From Somniosus microcephalus (taxonomy: Eukaryota): a DNA stretch of 64,000 nt. The notes below the pieces were generated by a model, which was given only the letters and a program-made list of their open reading frames with translations, was not told the DNA's origin and did no database searches. Each line of letters begins with the position of its first letter. Within the stretch, counting starts at the first letter, position 1. The stretch covers positions 161,014,001 to 161,078,000 of the forward strand of contig CM126204.1 in assembly GCA_052327205.1 (NCBI GenBank). Reading direction: 5' to 3'. Below are positions 16,547 through 48,933 of the stretch, one piece after another. A program made the position numbers and the translations under genes.

Positions 16547-16778
16547 AAATAAAAACAGAAAATGCTGGAAATACTTAGCAGGTCAGGCAGCATCTGTGGA
16601 GAGAGAGAAACAGAGTTAACGTTTCAGGTCGATGACCCTTCGTCAGAGGAAAGGTCATCGACTTGAAACGTTAACTCAGTTTCTCTCTTCACAGATGCTG
16701 CCTGACCTGCTGAGTATTTCCAGCATTTTCTGTTTTTATTTCAGATTTCCAGCATCCGCAGTATTTTGCTTTTGTAAA
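16547..16778. mobile_element. Penelope-derived palindromic element
   Basis: Near-perfect ~95-bp inverted arms; 12-bp flanking direct repeat AACTTGCATTTA (16535-46, 16779-90). Confidence 0.85.
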
Positions 16779-21224: not shown

Positions 21225-22357
21225 GGAAAGAACTTTAGTTTATACAGCACCTTATCACATATCCAAAAACATCTCAAAGTGTTTTTAAAAAAGTGAGTTA
21301 CTCGAAGTGTAGTCACTGTTGCTGGGTACACAAACGCTCCAGCACAGCGAGGTCCCACAAACTGTCGTCAGACAGATGAGGAATTAAACTATTTTGCTTG
21401 GTGGTGTTGGTTGAGGGAGGATTGTTGGCCTGTATTCTGTTCTTCAAATAGGGGCCACGGGATCTTCAGTGCTCACGAGTCAACTCAACAGGCGAATAGG
21501 ACCGAAGTTTAACGTCTCATCCAAAAGACAGCGGCCTAGAAATTCGGTGGGCTGCGCCACCAGTTAGCGCCTAAAGAGGGCACTCAGTGGCTTTAGCGCC
21601 ACTGGCCACGCCTCCTGCGATATTTAGCTGGGGCGCTAATGGCGGCGTTAGCCTGTTGTGCTGCGCCGCCACCGATGACGTCATCGGTGTGCGTAGCGCC
21701 CCGCTACCGCCCCGATCTCGATATTCAGTAGCGCCCGCCTCTGTAGCGCCGTTCACAAATCGCGCCCGGTTCACGGGGCCTACCTGTGGTGGCAGTGGCG
21801 CAAATTAAGGTGGAGGTGTGGGGCGGCCGTTTTTTTCGGCGGCCGCATGCCAGCACCTCTGTCCCCGGCCTCCTGAGCTCCCCCCGCGGCAGTGCCGACT
21901 GTTTTCCAAGAGCCCGGCACTTCTCCTTGGTGCCGGGCTCTTTTGCCGGCACTCGCGATCTCTGATCGCGCTGGTGCAGGCCCCTCCCCCTTAAGAATGG
22001 GAGGAAGGCCTGCAGTACCGCAGCGTGCCGTGCCGCAGCGTGTGACACTGCGGCACGTTGCGCTGCGATATTCAGTTACAGCGCCCTAAGAGGGATGCGG
22101 AGCGCCTCGATCCTCGCCCCGTGTCCCTCTTGGGGCGTTCAAGCTGAATTTCCGTCGGTCGCAACTGCTCCGATCGCTGTGCTAATTCCGGCGCCCAGGC
22201 GAGCTTGGCGCCCCGTTTGCGGCTCCACCGAATTTCTCCCCCAGCATCTCTGACAGTGCAGCACTCCCTCAGTTCTGCACTCGGGAGTGTCAGCCTGGAT
22301 TATGTGTTCAAGTCTCAGGAGTGGGACTTGAACCCACGGCCTTCTGACTCAGAGACT
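21225..22357 (-). mobile_element. Deu-domain SINE split by a MITE
   Basis: SINE sequence at ~21225-21532 and 22243-22357. Confidence 0.75.
21533..22242. mobile_element. Harbinger-like MITE (same family as 12377) inserted in a SINE
   Basis: GGCCTAGAAATTCGGTGG ... CCACCGAATTTCTCCCCC termini, 3-bp TSD AGC, interior similar to 12377-13065; the SINE resumes on both sides. Confidence 0.85.
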
Positions 22358-33131: not shown

Positions 33132-33317
33132 GCTACACTGCGCGAATCTGAGGAAATCCAGAGCGACCTGCAGGCCATGAGTGAGAAGTTAGACAGCGTG
33201 AGCGATGTGTATCAGACGGGTGCCATGTCTCAGCACGTGAGCGATCTCCGCCGACAGACAGAAGAGCTCCAGCAACTTACGCGAACCCGGCTACAAAGCC
33301 TGCAAGATGCAGCTAAG
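33132..33317 (+). CDS. SYNE1: Nesprin-1 exon J
   Basis: CTTTAG acceptor, AAG|GTAAAC donor. ESEEIQSDLQAMSEKL...RLQSLQDAAK. Confidence 0.93.
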
Positions 33318-33614
33318 GTAAACCAGCCACCCGACTCATTTACAGCTGGTCCGCTGTCCATTCTTACCGACACTTGTGGCAAAATTAGAGTGAGAGTGAG
33401 CGAGAGCAGAATGCTGCTTCCACAGCTCTTGGTACTGAACACCAACATAGCAGTGTTGCTGATTAACACCAAGTGAAGGCTGAGGTACATACATTTGTGT
33501 CAGAAAGTTGGATTAGATTCCCACTCAAAAAAAAAAAAAAACCCGCTGTGGATCCTTCCTGTGAAAAATATCACAATGAATTTAAAACTTGAGGCTGTAC
33601 TCCATGTAATGGGC

Positions 33615-34935: not shown

Positions 34936-36324
34936 ATTTCACTGAGCTCACCAAGTTCAAAGACCGTGAAAGTCTAATTTCCACCCATACAATGATCATA
35001 TTCGATTCACATTCATCCTGAAGTAATAATGAAATGTGGAATAACAGATAGCAAGGATGAGCTATAAGGTTGCAACTAAATCTAGGGGCTTTGATGATAT
35101 AAAATCACAATCTTCAAATATTTTACAAATAAAACCAATATTCTAACATTTTTTTCATGTTTAGTTTCTGGCAACCAATTGTTGGGAAACAAATCAGCCA
35201 ATGTATATTATAAAATGGCCCACTACACACAATGAAACTGCTCGCAGGGTATAAGATTTCCTATCTGTATCCCACAATACTTAGAGATCAAGGGGGTGTA
35301 ATTATGATTCTTGGTTTACAAAGACTTCGAGCGGGAGTCGATTGTTTTATATTTAATCTCATTTAGTGCCTCACATGGTTTATTATTTTCCAATGTAGGA
35401 ACGTTGTACCTCATTAGGAACAGGACGCTGGATTTTAGTCTCTCAACTTCAAGCTGTAGTCCCATTTTAAGGACTGATGTCTGTTCTTTTCTGATCACAA
35501 TCAGTGGACAGTGTACGGGCTGTTAGTGTGCAGCAGATTGAGAAGCCGATTGGAGTGTTCACCTTTATTCTTTAGGGATCATCGTAGGGTGTCTTTCAAC
35601 ATGGGTGTTGACGTAATAAAACTCACTACACACTTGGTTTGAGCATAAAGCAAGGCTTGTTTCAGAACATGGAGGTCTAGTTGTACTTCACTAGTTCCTT
35701 GTCTTACAAAATGTCCCTGTTAGCTGGGGCCGACGCCCGAGTATTTATACTCCTTGGACGGCGCCACCAGCTGGCTGTCCAGCGTTATTTCACGAGTAGT
35801 TACTTGATGAATGATGAGATTTATAACATTCTTCCTGCCTAAAAGATTTGGAAGTCCAACGACTTCCTCTTAGCGGATCAGGTGGACCACGAATAGCCGC
35901 AGTCTCTTAGATTTTTGTTTATGGCTAGAAGGCACGTCTCCCCGGACCGTGTCTTGGTCCCTGGGCTGCTTGATCCGTATCGGTGGATCGACAGGGCCCG
36001 TGTTGCTCTGATCGACACGAGGGAGGCTGGGGAGATCTTGACTCCGGGTGCGGGTCCCCACAGGCGCAGAACTGGCTTCATCCTGTTGGATAGCCGGGGA
36101 TTTACTGGCGTCCTGGCCTCGGTGTTGTGTATTTTGAATGTGTATTAGAATTGTCCCACATGGGATACCATAGTGGTGATTTGCAATGCACCATGGGAAA
36201 TGTAGTTCATTGAGTGAAGAAGCACATTGTAAATAAAATGGCCGTTAACTAAACTCTCCACCCCGGAGTCCTTCTTAATTGTTATATAGGTAAGGGTATA
36301 AAACCCCTTGAGACACAACAAAAC

Positions 36325-36338
36325 TGGCGACGAGGATG
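36325..36338 (+). promoter_or_regulatory. Primer binding site, tRNA-Ser(GCU)-like
   Basis: TGGCGACGAGGATG lies 4 nt after the 5' LTR and is complementary to the 3' end of vertebrate tRNA-Ser(GCT) as recalled. Confidence 0.8.
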
Positions 36339-36557
36339 ACGGACTTGTGCATCACTTTGCACTGGAATCGGCGATGTTTAAAGTAAGAAGTTCCTGTCTT
36401 TTCTTAATGGCGCGCCCGCAGTTTAGTGCTGATGCAATTCGTGTGTTACACAAATAAGAAGGGGGAGAGTAATGATACAGTGAAATGAAGTGGAGGAAAA
36501 GGACTGTTTAAAAAAAAAAGTGGAGGAAAAGGACTAAAGAAAAAAAAAGAAAACAAA

Positions 36558-39500
36558 ATGGCTATGCTAACCGGAGCGTTTGGACCATTTGATGAAACGG
36601 TGGAGCAATGGAGTGCTTATACAGAGCGTTTCGGATTTTTCGTGACTGCAAATGGCATTAAAGATGACGTGAAAGTGGCGATGTTCCTCAGTGTGATCGG
36701 AGCAAAAACATTTGGCTTGTTACGGAGTTTGATGCACCCGGATAAGCCCGGCGCTAAGACATATGATCAGATTGTGGAAGTTTTGGAAACACATTTCGCA
36801 CCCAAGCCGCTGCTGATTGCCGAGAGGTTCAGGTTTCACAAACGAAACCAAGGGGAGGGTGAGTCCATAGCCGAATATGTTGCAGTGCTAAAGAAGCTAA
36901 CTGAGCATTGTGAGTTTGGTGAAACTCTAAATGACACTGTCCATGATAGGTTTGTGTGTGGATTAAGATGTGAAGCAACACAGAAGTGCTTGCTCATGAC
37001 TGACAAACTGATGCTTAAATCAGCAGTGGAGCTCGCTGTGTCTATGGAGTTAGCAGCTAAAGATGCCCAGCTGTTGGGGGCTGCAACAAGAGTGCACAGG
37101 GTAGCAGCTACACCGGATAAGCATGCAAGGGGCCCCAGAGAGTGTTACAGATGTGGAAGGTCAGGTCATCAGCCATCTGACTGCTGGTGTAAAGACCTGA
37201 CCTGTCAGAAATGTGAAAAGAAAGGACACATTGAATGTGTGTGTAAAGGGCAAAGCAAACAATCCTACACAGAGACACACAAAAACAAACAAGGAAACAC
37301 ATCCAACTGGCGTTCTAAAAAGAAAAACCTACACATGGTGAAACAAGAACAGGAAGACAGTGACACAGACTCTGATGGGGAGCTGAATCTCCATGTGTTA
37401 ATGGTGAATGGAGGCTCATCAGGCTATGGAGTCACTCCACTACTAGAGGGAATACCGGTCAAAATGGAGCTGGATACGGGGGCCGCTGTCTCCTTGATGT
37501 CAGAGAAGCTATTCAAAGAAAAACTGAACCACCTATCACTGACACTGGCCAAGCTCATCTTAAAGACCTACACTGGGGAAACAGTCCCAATGCTAGGTAA
37601 GACAGAGGTCAAGGTGGAGCTTAATGGACAAACCGTGATGCTGCCAGTTTACGTGGTCAAGGGTGACTATCCATCCCTGATAGGCAGGCCATGGTTGGAG
37701 AAAATTCATCTGGATTGGAAAAAAGTGAATGCGGTGTCAGTCGAAGAGGCGGGGCTAGCGGCAGTGTTGACAAAGCATGCGGCTGTCATTGATGGAGAAT
37801 TGGGGAGTATGAAGGGGATTACGGTCAAACTCAAGGTGAAGCCTGACAGCCAGCCACGATTCCTGAAGGCCAGGAACGTTCCCTACGCCTTCAGACCAAA
37901 GGTGGAGGCTGACCTGGAGCGTCTGGTCAAGATAGGGGTCCTGGTGCCGGTTTTGCACAGTGAGTGGGCCACGCCCGTGGTACCAGTGATGAAGAATGAT
38001 GGCGCGGTTCGCTTATGTGGAGATTTCAAAGTAACAGTGAATCCTGTGCTCTCAGCTGAACAGTACCCCCTCCCCATCATTGAAGATCTTTTCGCGGGTC
38101 CAGCAGGTGGTCAGAAGTTTAGCAAGATTGATCTATGCCAAGCCTACTTGCAGATGCATGTAGAAGAGGACTCACAGAAGTACCTCACCATCACCACCCA
38201 CAAGGGCCTCTACAGGTACTGCCGCCTACCCTTTGGTATAACGTCAGCACCAGCATTCTTTCAGTGGGCTATGGACCAGATCTTAAGCGGCATTCCAGGG
38301 GTACAATGTTATCTCGACGATATCCTTGTCACATGAAAGGACGACAACGAGCATCTGCAGAACCTGACGAAGACACTGGGAAGACTTGAAGAATATGGCT
38401 TACGCGTTCACAAGGACAAATGCGAATTTTTCAAGCCATCAGTGGAGTACCTAGGCCATGTCATCGACGCGGATGGCCTACACACAGCACCGTCAAAAGT
38501 GAAAGCCATTGCCGACGCTCCTGCACTTACAAATGTCGGCCAGCTGCGGTCATTCTTAGGTCTCCTGAACTATTACGGAAAGTTTATTCCACAGCTGGCA
38601 TCACTGTTGAAACCATTACATGAGTTGCTGTGTCAGGGCAAGGCCTGGGCGTGGACGAAGGAGTGCGAAGCTGCATTCAAGAAAGCCAAAGCAGCTTTGA
38701 CTAACGCCAGAGTGTTGACGCACTTCGACCCGTCATTGCAGATTCAGCTGGCCTGTGATGCGTCGCCTTATGGCGTCGGCGCGGTCGTGTCCCACATCTT
38801 TCCCTCAGGCGAAGAGAAGCCGATTGCATTCGCGTCAAGGTCCCTGAGCAAGGCGGAGGTGAAATACCCGCAGATCGAAAAAGAGGCTTTGGGCATCATC
38901 TTTGGAATCAAAAAGTTCCATCACTACTTGTTCGGAAGGAAATTCACCTTGCTGACGGATCATCGTCCTCTGACATCGTGCAGGATGCAGCGCTGGGCGC
39001 TGATGTTAAGCGCTCACAATTACAACATCAAATACCGGAGGTCAGTAGCACATGGCAATGCGAACGGATTGTCAAGACTTCCGCTGCCTGTGCCCTCTGA
39101 AGACTGTGAGCAAAAGATTTTCTACTTTGACATGGTGAGCAATGCCCCTGTCACGGCCCGGCAGGTCAAGAAAGAGACCAGAGTGGACCCTACGCTATCC
39201 AAGGTGCTGGATCGGGTGATGCGAGGAGACGGATCACGGGTGTTAGACGCACCACCTGAGCTCCTACCTTACCTGTCAAGAGGGAAGAAGTTGTCTGTCA
39301 CGTCAGGATGCCTCCTTTGGGGCATGCGAGTGATCATACCACCAAAGCTGCGGAAACATGTCCTCAATGAGCTGCACTCAGGACATTGTGGTATTGTCCG
39401 GATGAAGGAGCTGGCACGAAGCTACTTCTGGTGGCCCGGTCTGGATCATGAAATTGAAGTTGAAGCGAAATCATGCCCATCATGCAAGACAACCAGGGAT

Positions 39501-40478
39501 ACACCAAGAGCAGCGCCACTGCATCCATGGGAATGGCCGGCGACACCGTGGCAACGGATCCATCTGGACTTCGCGGGACCAGTGGAAGGAGCGATGTTCC
39601 TGGTCGCGGTGGACTCCCATTCCAAATGGCCGGAGGTTGCAGTAATGTCCACTACCACTACGGAGAAAACCATCGAGACTCTGAGAGAGATGTTCGGGCG
39701 ATTTGGTCTGCCGGAGCAGATCGTAACCGACAATGGAACACAGTTCACATCCCAGGAGATGGAGGAGTTCCTCAAGAGCAATGGAATCCAGCACACGTTC
39801 TCCACGCCTTATCATCCATCCACGAATGGATTGGTGGAGAGATTTGTCAGAACGCTGAAACGCGCGTTGAAAGCGGCAAGAAGTGATGCTCCTCTAAAGC
39901 AGCGCCTGAATGCTTTCTTGCTGAAATACTGAAACACACCTCATGCTACGACTGGAGCATCTCCTGCTTACCTACTCATGGGAAGGCAGCTACGGACACG
40001 CCTTGACCTGCTGAGGCCAACGTCCACAGAAGCAGTGGTGCACACCAATCAGCAGGATCAAGTCAGCAGACGAGCTCAGAGTTCCAAAGAACGACACTTT
40101 GTGGTGGGGGGCAAAGTCCTCGCGCGTAACTACACCACCCCGGAGTGGTGGGTCCCGGCTACGGTCATTCAAAAGACGGGCCCCGTTTCATACCAAGTCC
40201 GCACCGGAGATGACCGAACATGGAGACGGCATGTAGACCAGTTACTGCCAAAACAGTCGCCACAGGTAACCCAAGAAACAGAGGATCAAGGACCTGCTGG
40301 GGGCTCCAGCAGGGACTGGTCATCTGACCCTGAGATGGTGGCACCATCCACTCTTGTGCCATCGAGGGAGGAAGCCACGCCTGCAGGGTCACGGGAGAGC
40401 CAGCCAGAGCCTGCTCCTGAGACTAGGTGTTACCCCCAAAGAGAAAGGCAGCCTCCAGAGCGCCTTAGTTACAGTTAG
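36558..40478 (+). pseudogene. Single-frame gag-pol of the inner element with two nonsense codons
   Basis: ORFs at 36558, 38442 and 39978 share one frame. Two CCHC knuckles, LDTGA protease, YLDD RT, CDAS/EKEA/TDH RNase H, HHCC and DDE integrase. TGA stops at 38334 and 39930. Confidence 0.93.
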
Positions 40479-40812
40479 TGCTGACCTGTGTGCATGGGGC
40501 AGAATAATCCCCAGGGTTAGTGGAATGTAGAGGCAGTCTACCCTCTCTTCCAAAGTTATAGTCATTTTCAGTTATTCTGTTTTGTGGACATTCTATTTTA
40601 AGGGGGAGGGAATATGTTGTGTATTTTGAATGTGTATTAGAATTGTCCCACATGGGATACCGTAGTGGTGATTTGCAATGCACCATGGGAAACGTAGTGC
40701 ATTGAGTGAAGAAGCACATTGTAAATAAAATAGCCGTTAACTAAACTCTCCACCCCGGAGTCCTTCTTAATTGTTATATAGGTAAGGGTATAAAACCCCT
40801 TGAGGCACAACA

Positions 40813-43800
40813 GGTGGCCATCCCACGGGGAGCGCTCGGCTCCCCGAGTGGATCCGGTGGGGCAGCTGGCAGATCTCTCGATGCCCCAGGTCGGGCGTTA
40901 TCTTTGGGGGAGCGCAGAGTGTCAGCATCATCCCCATGGGTCCCTCTATCGGTTGGGTCCGTGGAACCGGCCGGACAGGGAGCCAGGTCCTGAAACGGTG
41001 GACTCCCGGCTATCCGGGTACCACACGTGCGCATACGTGGGGTTGACATCCATGAGTTCTACCTCGTCGATGAGAGGATCGGTTTTAGATGATCGGACGA
41101 ATCTTCGGAGCAGCACGGGGCCGGGAACTGCCAACCATAACAGTAGAGACGTCCCATGGGTGGAGCGACGCTGGAAGCTGAAGAATCGCTCGTGAGGTGT
41201 GACATTGGTAGACGTAGAAAGGAGATACCTGATGGAATGCAACACGTCAGGGAGCATAGTTTCCCACTGCTGGTCTGGTAGGTTGCGTGACCTCAGCGCA
41301 AGACGAACAGCGTTCCAAATGATAGCGTTGTATCTCTCAACCTGTCCGTTACCGATGGGATGGTATGGTGTCGTTTTACTTGTGGCGATTCCCCGTTGGG
41401 AGAGATAACTTTTGAGTTCGCTTGACATGAAGGAGGGACCCCGATCAGAGTGGATGAAATTGGCTATACCGCAAAGGGAAAAGACTTGATCAAGGCATTT
41501 GATCACTGTGGAAGTAAGCATATTGGGACAGGAGAAAGCAAAGGGAAAGCGTGAATATTCGTCCACCATAGTCAGTAAGTAGGTGTTTCACGTTGAGGAG
41601 GGCAATGGCCCTTTAAAGTCAATGCTGAGTCGCTGCATAGCGTGTATGAGCGAGCCATCTGATGGATGGAAGAATTGCGGTTTTAATTCCACACAAATTT
41701 TACAGGAGGAGCACGTTCTTTTCACATCTTCCGTAGAAAATGAGAGATTTTTAGATTGCACAAAGTGCAACATACAGGTAACGCCAGGATGGCATAAGTC
41801 AGTGTGAAGATCCGCCAGAGTCGAAGTTGACATAGAAGTGCAGAATGTCCGCGTGAGGGTATCCGGGGCCACATTCTCTTTGCCGGGTCGATAATGTATG
41901 GTGTATCCAAAGGCGGCCAATTCCATCCTCCAGAGTTGTATTTTGTTATTCTTGATCTTAGTGTGTTTCCAGTTATCCAGCATAACGGCCACGGAGCGCT
42001 GATCGGTTATAAGTGTGAAATGGCGACGAGCGAGAAAATGACTCCATTTACGTACCGCTTCGATGATGGCTGTAGCCTCCTTCTCAACAGGAGGATAATG
42101 GAGCTCGCTACCCTGCAAAGTTCTGGACAGAAATGCAACGGGTCGACCACCTTGATTCAAGGTAGCAGAGATTGCCACATCCGATGCATCGCACTCGACC
42201 ACGAAAGGAAGATTTTCATCAATGGAACGAAGCGTGGCTTTTTCCAGTTGTCGCTTGAGGAGGTTGAAAGCTGAAATAGCTGTTGCCTCCAATGGAAATG
42301 ACTTTGCGTGAAGCAGGGAAGTAGGCTATCCATTTCGCATAATAGGCGAACATGCCGAGTGCCTGACGAGATTCGTAGGCGGAGGGAGCTCCTGAAGCGG
42401 ATGAAGTCGCTCCGGATCCGGTTTGATGACACCGTTGCCCACCCAGTAGCCAAGGATGTTGACTGATGGTACTGATTTCACGGATTTGGACTCATTTAAG
42501 GTTAAGTTGCGATGACGGAGAACGTCAACAAATTTCTGGAGGTTGGCATCATGCTCCTTCTGGTCACGACCAGCAATGGTGATATTATCCAGATATGGAA
42601 AAGTGTCCGTTAAGTTCTCCTGTTTGACTAGGCTATCCATTGCCCATTGAAAGACGGCCACCCCATTGGTGACCCCAAATGGAAGGCGACAAAACTGGTA
42701 AAGCTGACCATTGGCCTCAAAGGCCGTATACTTCTTGTCAGAGTCCTTTAACGGCACTTGATGATATGCGCTCTTTAAATCAAAAGTTGAAAATACCTTG
42801 TAGTTGGCAAGGTTATTGACCATGTCATCGATGCGTGGAAGTGGGTAGGCATCCAGGTCGGTATACTGGTTAATAGTTTGCGAGTAATCGATGCAAAGAT
42901 GTTTCTTGTGTTGCTTCAGAGGATTATTAAGAATGACGACTTGAGCCCGCCAGGAAGATGAACATGGCTTAATGATACCGTCAGCTAGAAGGCAAGAGAT
43001 TTCTGTCTCGATAAAGGATCGATCATCTTGGCTGAAACGTCGTGATTTAGTGACTATGGGCTTACATCGGGGAGAAAGATTGCCAAACAAGGAGGGCTTG
43101 TCGAGTGAAGCCACCGAAAGCGCACAAAACGGTACTTTGGAAATAGTAAACTCCGGCTTTGACCCTCCAAACTCGAAAGTTAGTCTTTTGTGTTGTTTCT
43201 GGAAATCCTGTCCCAGGAGCACATCACTGCATCGGTTCTTGAGCACCCCGAACCGGGTGGAGAAATAAGTGCGGCCATTGAGAATAAGGTCGACAAGACA
43301 AAAGCCAGAAGAATTGGTGGTCAGTGTTATCAGAGCCATTGCAATTTCCCTGTCCGAGGGGTAAATACGCAGTTTTAACTTACTGACAGCCCGCTCACTA
43401 ATGAAGCTGTCAGAGCTGCACGAGTCAATTAGTGCACTCAAAATGTGTCCATTTGCCGAAACCTTTGTGGTTGCATGGGACAGACTTTGGGGAAAAACAG
43501 CTGTGATGGGAGGAGGGGCAGTTTTACCCTTGACAGCTGCACCCTTAGTAGTGGTTCTTGGGGGAGGAGCAGTTTTATAGGTTGCAGCTGTAACCTTAGT
43601 AGTGGCTCTTGGGGGAGGAGCAGTTTTATAGATAGTAGCTGCAAAACTAACAGGAGCTCTTGACTGGCATACCTTAGAAAAGTGACCTTTCTTGCTGCAA
43701 TGATTGCAGGTCATGTTACGAGCAGGACAAAATTTCCTATAATGAAACGCACCTCCACAGAAGAAACACTTCCTTCCAGATTGCCAAGATGCCGCTAGGG

Positions 43801-44464
43801 CGGGGTCATCATCAGTGTAGGTTTCTAGGGTATGTTTGTCATCAGCCGGGTTGGAGTCGTCATCCGTGAGGGCTTCCACCCGAGGCCTATCGAAAGAGTC
43901 ACACAAAGTGATAGCAGCAGCCCGTGCACGTGGTGAAAGATAGGTGTCTGCATTCCTCTTTGCTAAGTCCAGAGAACATGCCTGGTCATAGGCAGCCTGT
44001 AACTTGAGGGTTTTATTCTCCAACAGACGCTGACGTATGAAGGGAGACGCAATCCCAGTAATAAAGGAATCACAAATTAACGCCTCCTGGTACTGCTCAG
44101 CTGTAACAGCTTTAAGATTACAATCCTTGCTGAGCCTGCGAAGTTTCTGAAGGAATTCGTCAGGTGATTCCCCGGGTTGTTGTCGAGTTGTGGCCAGTTG
44201 ATGCTGAGCAAAAATTTCATTTGGGGACTTGACATATAGCTGCTGTGGTATTTGGATAGCGGCGTCATAGTCTACACAGTCTTCGATATAATTAAACACA
44301 TGAGGGGATACATAATTAGCAAGTATCTCTAATTTATCAGGAACATTTTCACCACACACCCTGAGGAAGTTGCTGAAAGTACGATACCAGTGTTTCCATA
44401 CCTTAGCAGATGTAGGTGAATTTGGGTCCAGGTCGAGATGGGCGGGTCTGAGTAGTTTCTCCAT
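40813..44464 (-). pseudogene. Frameshifted gag-pol of the outer element
   Basis: Two Cys/His knuckles (CFFCGGAFHYRKFC, CNHCSKKGHFSKVC), protease LIDS, RT (FDLKSAYHQ, LPFGVTNG, YLDN), RNase H (ECDAS, EKEA, TDQ), integrase (HPG..C..C, DFKGP, HSDRG, GNGQVER), spread over several frames. Confidence 0.9.
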
Positions 44465-45147
44465 GATGGATCGATTACTTGTCTGAGTTCCCTTCTACGG
44501 TTCGAGTCGTAGCTGGCTGTTCCCGAAATCACCCAAAGCGTGGAGTCGATATCAAGTTGATTAAATTGACGTAATAAAACTCACTACGCATTTGGTTTGA
44601 GTATAAAGCAAGGCTTTAATCAACTTGTTTCAGAACATGATGGTCTAGTTGTACTTCACTAGTTCCTTGTCTTACAAAATGTCCCTGGCAATCTGGGGCC
44701 GACGCCCGAGTATTTATACTCCTTGGACGGCGGACGGCCATCCAGCGTTATTTCACGAGTAATTTCTTGATGAATGATGAGATTTATAACGGGTTAAGCC
44801 CCTTAGCTTAAATAGTTTAACACCATTAAAGTGATGATCTTCGTAATATATAACCTCATCTTGATCATCGTTCATTTTTGGGTTGGGGTTCCTGAATAAT
44901 TCTGAACAGTTAAATATCCACTGCACAGATACAATGATCATACTTTGGACTGATGCTATCTTGAATCTGAGAGGGGGAATGCCTTGAAATCTCTTAATTG
45001 AATCACTAATTGGTCTGGTGTTGCTAAGTTTTTATTGTTTTGGGATGTAACAGAATCACAACTGATTGATACTGTCAGCGTAATAAATACTTTTAACAGT
45101 GCATCATTTATTCACATACCTACTGAGCCAGTTAATTGCCACTTCAA

Positions 45148-47771: not shown

Positions 47772-47954
47772 AGGTTACTGGCTGACATGGAGGGGTTCAA
47801 GCAGAAGGTCCAGGCAGTGCACAGATATCAGGCTGCCCTACGAATTCCAGAAGAAATTGTCACCAACCTGCCCATCTGCCAGACGGCACTGAGGCTGCAG
47901 GAGGAGGCCAGTCGTCTGCAGCACACTGCGATCCAACAGTGTAACATCCTACAG
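47772..47954 (+). CDS. SYNE1: Nesprin-1 exon L
   Basis: CGCTAG acceptor, CAG|GTAGGT donor. ALRIPEEIVTNLPICQTALRLQEEASRLQHTAIQQCNILQ. Confidence 0.95.
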
Positions 47955-48789: not shown

Positions 48790-48933
48790 GAAGCGGTGAT
48801 CCAGTATGAACAGTACGAGCAGGAGATGCGGCACCTCCAGCAGCTAATTGAGAGAGCGCATCGTGAGATCCAGGAGAAGCCCGTGTCTACCAGCAACATC
48901 CAGCAGCTGCAGGCCCAGATCTCCCGACACGAG
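48790..48933 (+). CDS. SYNE1: Nesprin-1 exon M
   Basis: TACAG acceptor, GAG|GTAAAC donor. EAVIQYEQYEQEMRHLQQLIERAHREIQEKPVSTSNIQQLQAQISRHE. Confidence 0.95.

What the first reader, a model, noticed from the sequence alone, without database searches (positions are those of the whole stretch)
44553..44627. Gypsy element without a tRNA PBS: the PBS position is complementary to its own LTR
Seen: on the minus strand the 5' LTR is followed by TTTAATCAACTTG (plus 44553-65) rather than TGG.... This is a perfect 13-nt reverse complement of LTR positions 44615-27, which contain an ATTAAA signal. Known: Tf1/sushi-type elements self-prime by annealing the transcript 5' end to the PBS. Inference: this is self-priming in a non-chromovirus lineage, or a hairpin masking the 5' poly(A) signal. 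The candidate TATA (44711-18) lies ~85 nt upstream, further than a Tf1-like start predicts, so the mechanism may differ.
Basis: partly seen in the sequence, partly recalled or inferred. Interest (0 to 1): 0.7.

Follow-up and report, generated by a model that had tools for sequence, protein, structure and literature searches.

The report
Self-priming Gypsy clade in animals
This jumping gene, like most relatives we could examine in other animals, has no tRNA landing site; that spot instead pairs perfectly with a stretch of the element's own end-repeat that carries the poly(A) signal, so the group likely starts copying its RNA with a piece of that same RNA, a trick proven so far in the yeast element Tf1, which belongs to a different branch.

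Summary
Confirmed. On the minus strand the 5' LTR (44791-44567) ends in CA, one A follows, then a 13-mer (44565-53) that is the exact complement of LTR 44627-15, which ends in ATTAAA. It is not chance. Two subfamilies in this genome changed both arms together (1231 and 897 matched copies against 13 and 9 mismatched). 22 of 28 Gag-defined families carry a 12-18 bp stem with different letters, against 0 of 26 controls; in 21 of the 22 it starts two bases after the LTR end. The clade has no chromodomain and is rejected as part of the host's own chromoviruses, which show the classic mid-LTR 11-nt self-primer. Differences from Tf1/sushi: the arm lies 24-72 nt from the PBS, usually ends in the poly(A) hexamer, is followed by a small hairpin, and lies 70-90 nt behind the TATA-like box. 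Self-priming is inferred, not shown (about 0.85). Whether the primer is cut from inside R or is the RNA's 5' end is open; RNA-seq could not map the start. Ten literature searches found no report for this clade, but this scan noted the same signature earlier in other genomes.

The parts
44567..44791 (-). 5' LTR, about 225 bp, TG...CA type (first base reads C in this copy)
   Evidence: 199 of 213 aligned bases identical to the 3' LTR
44711..44718 (-). TATA-like box; a start about 30 nt downstream is inferred
   Evidence: a similar box lies 84-104 nt before the hexamer end in four families of this genome
44615..44627 (-). LTR arm (candidate self-primer), ending in the ATTAAA hexamer at 44620-44615
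   Evidence: covariation
44590..44614 (-). stretch right after the arm, starting GCC; across the clade a small hairpin starts at the first base after the arm. In this family it is a bulged version, broken in this copy by a change at 44591
44570..44590 (-). predicted U5 hairpin next to the LTR end; not conserved across families
44566..44566 (-). 1-nt spacer between the LTR's CA and the PBS-position arm
44553..44565 (-). PBS-position 13-mer, complementary to the LTR arm; no TGG
40813..44464 (-). gag-pol (Gag, protease, RT, RNase H, integrase), broken by stops and frame changes in this copy
36123..40812 (+). nested second Gypsy element with 198-bp LTRs and an ordinary TGG-type PBS at about 36324; used as an internal control
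35829..35840 (-). polypurine tract directly before the 3' LTR
35609..35828 (-). 3' LTR; this copy lacks 10 nt of the arm, the hexamer included

Best explanation
This is a Gypsy LTR retrotransposon of a widespread animal clade without chromodomain whose PBS position pairs with a 12-18 nt arm of its own LTR, and the element likely uses that arm, not a tRNA, as the primer for reverse transcription. Inferred steps: transcription starts about 30 nt after the TATA-like box, so the arm lies inside R. The arm folds onto the PBS. The RNA is cut at the arm's 3' end (A|GCC, where a small conserved hairpin begins), probably by the element's RNase H as in Tf1. The freed 3' end primes a short strong-stop DNA of about 50 nt, which jumps to the RNA's 3' end using the stretch between the hexamer and the poly(A) site. 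Because the arm usually ends in the hexamer, the same helix would also hide the 5' poly(A) signal, while the 3' copy has no PBS beside it and stays free. Shown: the pairing, its fixed position, its covariation and the clade's separation from the host's chromoviruses. Not shown: start site, cleavage, priming, masking. Self-priming in some form: about 0.85; this internal-arm version: about 0.52.
For: (1) Genome-wide 2x2 table of arm variant by PBS variant: 1231 and 897 matched copies, 13 and 9 mismatched. (2) 22 of 28 families have a perfect stem of 10 bp or more within 200 nt before gag; 0 of 26 gag windows and 5 of 280 shuffles do. (3) In 26 families the arm pairs with its own PBS at 11.8 of 12 positions but with other families' PBS at 7.5 of 12; 23 different 12-mers; 10 of 12 positions show two or more Watson-Crick pair types. 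(4) The stem starts two bases after the LTR's CA in 21 of 22 families, with the LTR end fixed by LTR pairs in several; a primer site needs this, a mere mask does not. (5) Three families keep perfect pairing but have no recognisable hexamer at the arm end (L082, L114, L130). (6) A helix of 4 bp or more starts at the first base after the arm in 19 of 26 families, 5.4 expected from shuffles, and the second base after the arm is C in 26 of 26. (7) A TATA-like box lies 84-104 nt before the hexamer end in four families of this genome, two of them distant from the window's family, and pairing runs on to positions 12-15 (25, 23, 18 and 19 of 26). (8) The pattern meets the published criterion for a predicted self-primer: 10 bp or more, starting 0-5 bp after the LTR (PMC6317226, passages).
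Against: No priming, cleavage or start site was observed. Arm positions 9-11 are conserved as AGT (21, 21 and 18 of 26), which resembles an initiator (recalled) and would give an 11-nt 5'-terminal primer as in Tf1. Only a few of the 22 metagenome families show a TATA-like box upstream. Four families show no stem (L062, L064, L089, L131/L133): two have short contig ends and two look deleted, but that is my reading. The PBS-adjacent duplexes that Tf1 needs were not detected. The window's own family has only a bulged form of the post-arm hairpin and does not count among the 19; the same stem test at other loop offsets gave 7-15 of 26. GC after a poly(A) hexamer is common in LTRs generally (recalled). 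The family count used the best copy of each family.
Confidence: 0.52

Rival explanations
1. Tf1-like self-priming: the genomic RNA starts at or just before the arm, so the primer is the RNA's first 11-15 bases; R is very short, and the hexamer overlaps the primer only because both must fit into R.
For: Conserved AGT at arm positions 11-9 gives exactly 11 nt to the arm end, the length of the Tf1 primer (PMC7175516, passage). Most metagenome families show no TATA-like box. Tf2 is known to use alternative start sites (PMC5341516, passages).
Against: TATA-like boxes lie far upstream in four families of this genome. Pairing with changed letters continues to positions 12-15. No pretzel-type PBS-adjacent duplexes were found.
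Confidence: 0.28
2. The helix only hides the 5' poly(A) signal, and priming uses something else, such as a tRNA fragment or another host RNA that displaces the arm.
For: The arm ends in AATAAA or ATTAAA in 16 of 22 families and in a near variant in 2 more. The tRNA test was incomplete: 30 loci, Cys and Lys only, best match 7 of 13.
Against: 23 different PBS 12-mers among 26 families cannot match one host primer; none begins TGG. The fixed start at CA+2 is not needed for masking. Three families keep the pairing without the hexamer.
Confidence: 0.12
3. Self-priming in another geometry: the arm is supplied by the 3' R copy or by the second packaged RNA, not by the neighbouring 5' copy.
For: Both LTRs normally carry the arm (25 of 30 3' LTRs), so sequence alone cannot tell which copy primes.
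Against: The 5' copy lies only 24-72 nt from the PBS and is paired in the predicted fold; local pairing would be expected to win.
Confidence: 0.06
4. Chance, or an inverted duplication in one family with no function.
For: The arms are A/T-rich.
Confidence: 0.02

Closest known systems
Tf1, Tf2, Tj1, Tosmo1-3 of fission yeasts and the Tf1/sushi group (self-primed chromoviruses)
   Same: No tRNA PBS; the PBS right after the LTR's CA is perfectly complementary to a stretch of the element's own LTR (PMC4600332, PMC7175516, bioRxiv 10.1101/2022.12.06.519325; passages).
   Different: No chromodomain and a separate RT/RNase H branch. Arm 12-18 nt rather than 11; loop 24-72 nt against 155-161 nt in this genome's own chromoviruses; arm usually ends in the poly(A) hexamer; probably not at the RNA's 5' end; no pretzel duplexes detected.
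Plant Tcn1 (chromovirus) and TAR (Ty1/copia) lineages, predicted to self-prime
   Same: Predicted by the same sequence criterion, which this clade meets (PMC6317226, passages). TAR shows that predicted self-priming outside Tf1/sushi is already in print.
   Different: Different lineages and hosts; the passages I saw name no animal non-chromovirus Gypsy.
Fungal GalEa copia elements with a Conserved Hairpin Site
   Same: The PBS is replaced by a conserved self-pairing element of unknown mechanism (PMC5445492, passages).
   Different: Copia, not Gypsy; there the authors found no U5 sequence complementary to the site, and its first arm is palindromic.
Named non-chromovirus animal Gypsy clades (Mag A/B/C, CsRN1, Cigr-1, MolGy1-16)
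   Same: Non-chromoviral and spread over animal phyla. Relatives are named from crustaceans, molluscs, cnidarians, a tunicate, a nematode and a shark.
   Different: I could not tie this clade to a name: no reference sequences were available, and 'PBS', 'primer' and 'self' do not occur in the main text of PMC6238403. 'Cigr-like' was a recalled guess and is untested.

Membership tests
Ty3/Gypsy LTR retrotransposon | Two LTRs, PPT, target duplication, order PR-RT-RH-IN | tested here: met
   the duplication is exact in paired copies, 3 of 5 bases in the window copy
Tf1/sushi chromoviruses | Chromodomain at the integrase C-terminus | tested here: not met
   0 of 14 full-length relatives have a Pfam chromo hit at E<=0.1; the window copy's integrase is interrupted
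Tf1/sushi chromoviruses | RT/RNase H groups with chromoviruses | tested here: not met
   about 30% identity to the host's chromoviruses and to the nested element, against 44-76% for the longer hits within the clade; AU test rejects a chromovirus + own-family clade, p=0.001. Only host chromoviruses and one other outgroup were available, so a sister position is not excluded
Tf1/sushi chromoviruses | PBS complementary to own LTR, no tRNA PBS | tested here: met
Tf1/sushi chromoviruses | Primer is the first bases of the RNA | tested here: inconclusive
   RNA-seq lays gave no start or end peaks in the LTR; TATA spacing argues against, the AGT motif for
Tf1/sushi chromoviruses | Three-duplex pretzel with PBS-adjacent helices | tested here: not met
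   loop folds and loop-to-downstream duplexes no better than shuffles in 26 families (mean z -0.28 and -0.23, none under -2); a crude test, not run on a positive control
Tf1/sushi chromoviruses | RNase H cleavage releases the primer | not testable with these tools
   needs biochemistry
tRNA-primed LTR elements | PBS begins TGG and matches a tRNA 3' end | tested here: not met
   0 of 26 families begin TGG; the nested element does
half-tRNA-primed elements | PBS matches an internal tRNA stretch and is conserved across families | tested here: inconclusive
   only Cys and Lys tRNAs retrieved, best 7 of 13; 23 different PBS 12-mers argue against
Cigr-1, Mag or MolGy clades | RT tree placement with named references | not testable with these tools
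   no reference sequences; the searchable supplements of PMC6238403 gave names and accessions only

The most novel reading that the evidence does not exclude
A large, old, animal-wide Gypsy clade evolved self-priming independently of Tf1/sushi and by a different route: it cuts its primer out of the middle of R, exactly at the end of the poly(A) hexamer, so that one helix both primes reverse transcription and silences the 5' poly(A) signal, with a small hairpin marking the cut.
Probability: 0.45. Interest if true: 0.8.

Novelty: new variant of a known kind. Interest (0 to 1): 0.62.

Why it matters
Self-priming is treated in print as a mark of the Tf1/sushi chromoviruses, with predictions for two plant lineages. 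A second, unrelated animal Gypsy clade with more than 2,000 matched copies in this genome alone would show that leaving tRNA behind happened repeatedly. Such elements would escape control by tRNA fragments aimed at the PBS (inference) and are missed by PBS-based annotation. If the primer is internal, the requirement for a 5'-terminal primer is not general, and priming is tied to poly(A)-site choice. One 5'-end mapping experiment decides between the two versions.

Tried and rejected
No RNA holder was listed for the stretch. Two raw RNA runs of a related organism were laid on the LTR: reads came from both strands and many copies, with no splice joints and no start or end peaks inside the LTR, and no poly(A) loose end among the rows shown (many rows were not shown); uninformative for start or poly(A) site. 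The viral contig scan found no relatives. tRNA retrieval gave only two isotypes. A rare arm variant tested for the direction of change was too scarce (0 and 7 copies). Splice-acceptor-like sites before the arm: 6 of 21 families against 2.8 expected, P about 0.04, post hoc; not accepted. The whole-region fold is no more stable than shuffles (z -1.04); only the stem itself is special. The first tree mislabelled two rows as chromoviruses: their best hits were neighbouring elements of the self-pairing clade; its careful search did not finish. The second tree dropped ten gappy or long rows, two near-duplicate chromovirus rows and 17 of 25 database proteins. The PDB search gave only Ty3 and retroviral RTs. 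The clade name stayed unresolved.

Full report
Observation. On the minus strand, 44565-44553 is the exact reverse complement of 44627-44615, and the match extends on neither side. The element is a Gypsy LTR retrotransposon with protease, RT, RNase H and integrase in that order, a 5' LTR at 44791-44567, a polypurine tract and a 3' LTR at 35828-35609. The LTR ends in CA at 44567: 3' LTR copies diverge into flanks there, read loose ends pile up there, and two of four paired copies show exact 5-bp target duplications (the other two, the window copy among them, are imperfect). One A separates the LTR from the 13-mer. This copy is decayed: its frames are broken, its LTRs are identical at 199 of 213 aligned bases, its 3' LTR lacks 10 nt of the arm, and a second Gypsy element sits inside it at 36123-40812. 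The host genome is 6.4 Gb; flanking exons give weak spectrin-repeat hits. That the host is a cartilaginous fish is my guess, not tested.

Within the genome. Of the 30 best-scoring 5' ends, 25 hold both arms exactly; of 30 3' LTRs, 25 hold the arm. RNA reads pointed to a related LTR with one base fewer in the arm. A PBS with one base fewer occurs 1342 times, and 11 of 20 such copies examined carry the exactly matching shorter arm; none carries the window's arm. Whole-genome counts of arm by PBS: long/long 1231, long/short 13, short/long 9, short/short 897; reversed-pattern controls 0. These are copies, not independent events. Two more distant families found next to chromoviruses (about 58% RT identity to the query used) carry their own arm-PBS pairs, 14 of 14 and 12 of 13 bases.

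Across animals. Relatives are named from crustaceans, molluscs, cnidarians, a tunicate, a nematode and a shark. A Gag alignment fetched 80 metagenome loci. I entered 70; ten lacked the Gag start or nearly all upstream DNA, and one more had under 90 nt upstream. The remaining 69 plus the window form 28 families at 80% DNA identity. Taking the best copy of each, 22 of 28 have a perfect stem of 10 bp or more (12-18 bp, loop 24-72 nt) in the 200 nt before gag; 0 of 26 equal windows inside gag and 5 of 280 dinucleotide shuffles do. Two more have a 9-bp core at the same place. Four have none: L062 and L064 (short contig ends, no junction motif), L089, and L131/L133 (PBS-like arm present, LTR arm missing). 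In 21 of the 22 the stem starts two bases after a CA; LTR pairs confirm that CA as the LTR end in L063, L068, L070, L090, L096, L107, L230, L232, L233 and L235. In a set of 26 (the 23 with a stem of 9 bp or more at that position, plus three families of this genome) own pairing is 11.8 of 12 and cross-family pairing 7.5 of 12; no permutation of 20,000 reaches the observed total. Own pairing is partly circular, since stems were selected; the cross-family drop and the changed pair types are the informative part. The hosts of these loci are not known to me.

Anatomy. The arm ends in AATAAA or ATTAAA in 16 of 22 families, in a near variant in 2, in no hexamer in 3, and one copy is decayed. So pairing is better conserved than the hexamer. 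The arm's last base is A and the second base after it C in 26 of 26. A helix of 4 bp or more starts at the first base after the arm in 19 of 26 families, against 5.4 expected when the rest of the loop is shuffled, with changed pairs at its inner positions; other loop offsets give 7-15, so the effect is moderate, and the window's family has only a bulged form (23 of 28 copies read). No conserved PBS-adjacent duplex was found. A TATA-like box lies 84-104 nt before the hexamer end in the four families of this genome, but in only a few of the metagenome families. Arm positions 11-9 are mostly AGT, an initiator-like word (recalled), yet pairing continues through positions 12-15 and falls to 9 of 26 at position 16. 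RNA-seq could not map starts or ends.

Controls in the same genome. The nested element has a TGG-type PBS and no self-match; its likeness to a serine tRNA end is recalled, not tested. Of nine chromodomain-bearing loci fetched, four gave clean LTR pairs with a 9-11 nt self-match in mid-LTR; in the two printed, the loop is 155-161 nt and the arm holds no hexamer. This is the known sushi-type layout and differs from the clade studied.

Lineage. None of 14 full-length relatives has a chromodomain. In an RT/RNase H tree of 32 rows the clade (26 rows) and the host chromoviruses (5 rows) are each set off by long branches with full support, and an AU test rejects joining the window's family to the chromoviruses (p=0.001). 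With one outgroup, a sister relation between the two groups cannot be excluded, so independent origin is likely but not shown. I could not name the clade.

Mechanism. A helix that always begins two bases after the LTR end, keeps perfect pairing while its letters change, and replaces the tRNA site is best read as a primer bound to its site. Tf1 does this with the RNA's first 11 bases and an RNase H cut (PMC7175516, passage), within a three-duplex structure (bioRxiv 10.1101/2022.12.06.519325, passages). Here the promoter spacing suggests the arm lies 40-60 nt inside R; a cut at its 3' end would leave a short strong-stop DNA whose only landing zone is the stretch between hexamer and poly(A) site, which would explain why the arm ends at the hexamer. 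The helix would also hide the 5' poly(A) signal. All of this paragraph after the first sentence is inference. I put self-priming at about 0.85, split 0.52 internal arm, 0.28 5'-terminal arm, 0.06 other geometry; masking only 0.12.

Literature. Ten full-text searches listed no paper on self-priming in an animal non-chromovirus Gypsy clade. I saw passages of PMC5445492, PMC3601003 (and part 1 of 2 of section 8), PMC6238403 (supplement list and search; one PDF and one slide file unreadable, long cells cut, and these may hold clade sequences), PMC4600332, PMC6317226, PMC3670739, PMC7175516, PMC5341516, the bioRxiv preprint (69) and PMC5371799. Levin 1995 and 1996, Lin and Levin 1997 and Butler 2001 I saw only as references. 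Repbase and subscription journals were not searched, so an earlier remark on this feature may exist. This scan noted the same signature in other genomes, seen after my reading was formed; those notes are not independent support. Two notes on splice-made primers in BEL/Pao elements prompted the splice-site check, which stayed inconclusive. Nothing was noted for this genome or for look-alike sequence.

Verdict. Real, conserved and clade-wide; works like Tf1 self-priming by inference, but is not a member of Tf1/sushi. New variant of a known kind; interest 0.62.

Noticed in passing
window 36123-40812 (+): Nested Gypsy element with 198-bp LTRs (97% alike) and an ordinary TGG-type PBS, inserted in the integrase end of the self-pairing element.
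   Followed up: partly
window 35650-35665 (-): The 3' LTR of this copy has lost 10 nt between two short AAG repeats, removing the arm's core and the poly(A) hexamer.
   Followed up: partly
window 44791-44800 and 35599-35608: The target duplication of this copy matches at only 3 of 5 bases, and its two LTRs differ by three indels; decay or recombination between two copies.
   Followed up: no
L224 and L228 (chromoviruses of this genome): Classic sushi-type 11-nt self-primer in mid-LTR; the same genome thus holds two layouts of self-pairing PBS.
   Followed up: partly
L083, L094, L101, L110, L076, L114, within 60 nt before the arm: Splice-acceptor-like sites upstream of the arm (6 of 21 families, 2.8 expected); an intron in the LTR would change how far the arm lies from the cap.
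   Followed up: partly
L144, around the 5' LTR: The LTR of this copy appears to begin right at the arm, with unrelated DNA upstream; one case only.
   Followed up: no
L221:5637-9335 (+): A distant family of the self-pairing clade lies beside or within a chromovirus copy on the opposite strand.
   Followed up: partly
window 33132-33320, 47772-47954, 48790-48933 (+): Exon-like frames, two with weak spectrin-repeat hits; the element probably lies antisense in an intron of a spectrin-repeat gene (nesprin-like, recalled).
   Followed up: partly
window 16582-16706 and 21908-21942: Two other short perfect inverted repeats, unrelated to this element.
   Followed up: no
window 43509-43661: Three 51-nt tandem copies inside gag, coding a Pro/Thr/Ala-rich linker before the protease.
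   Followed up: no
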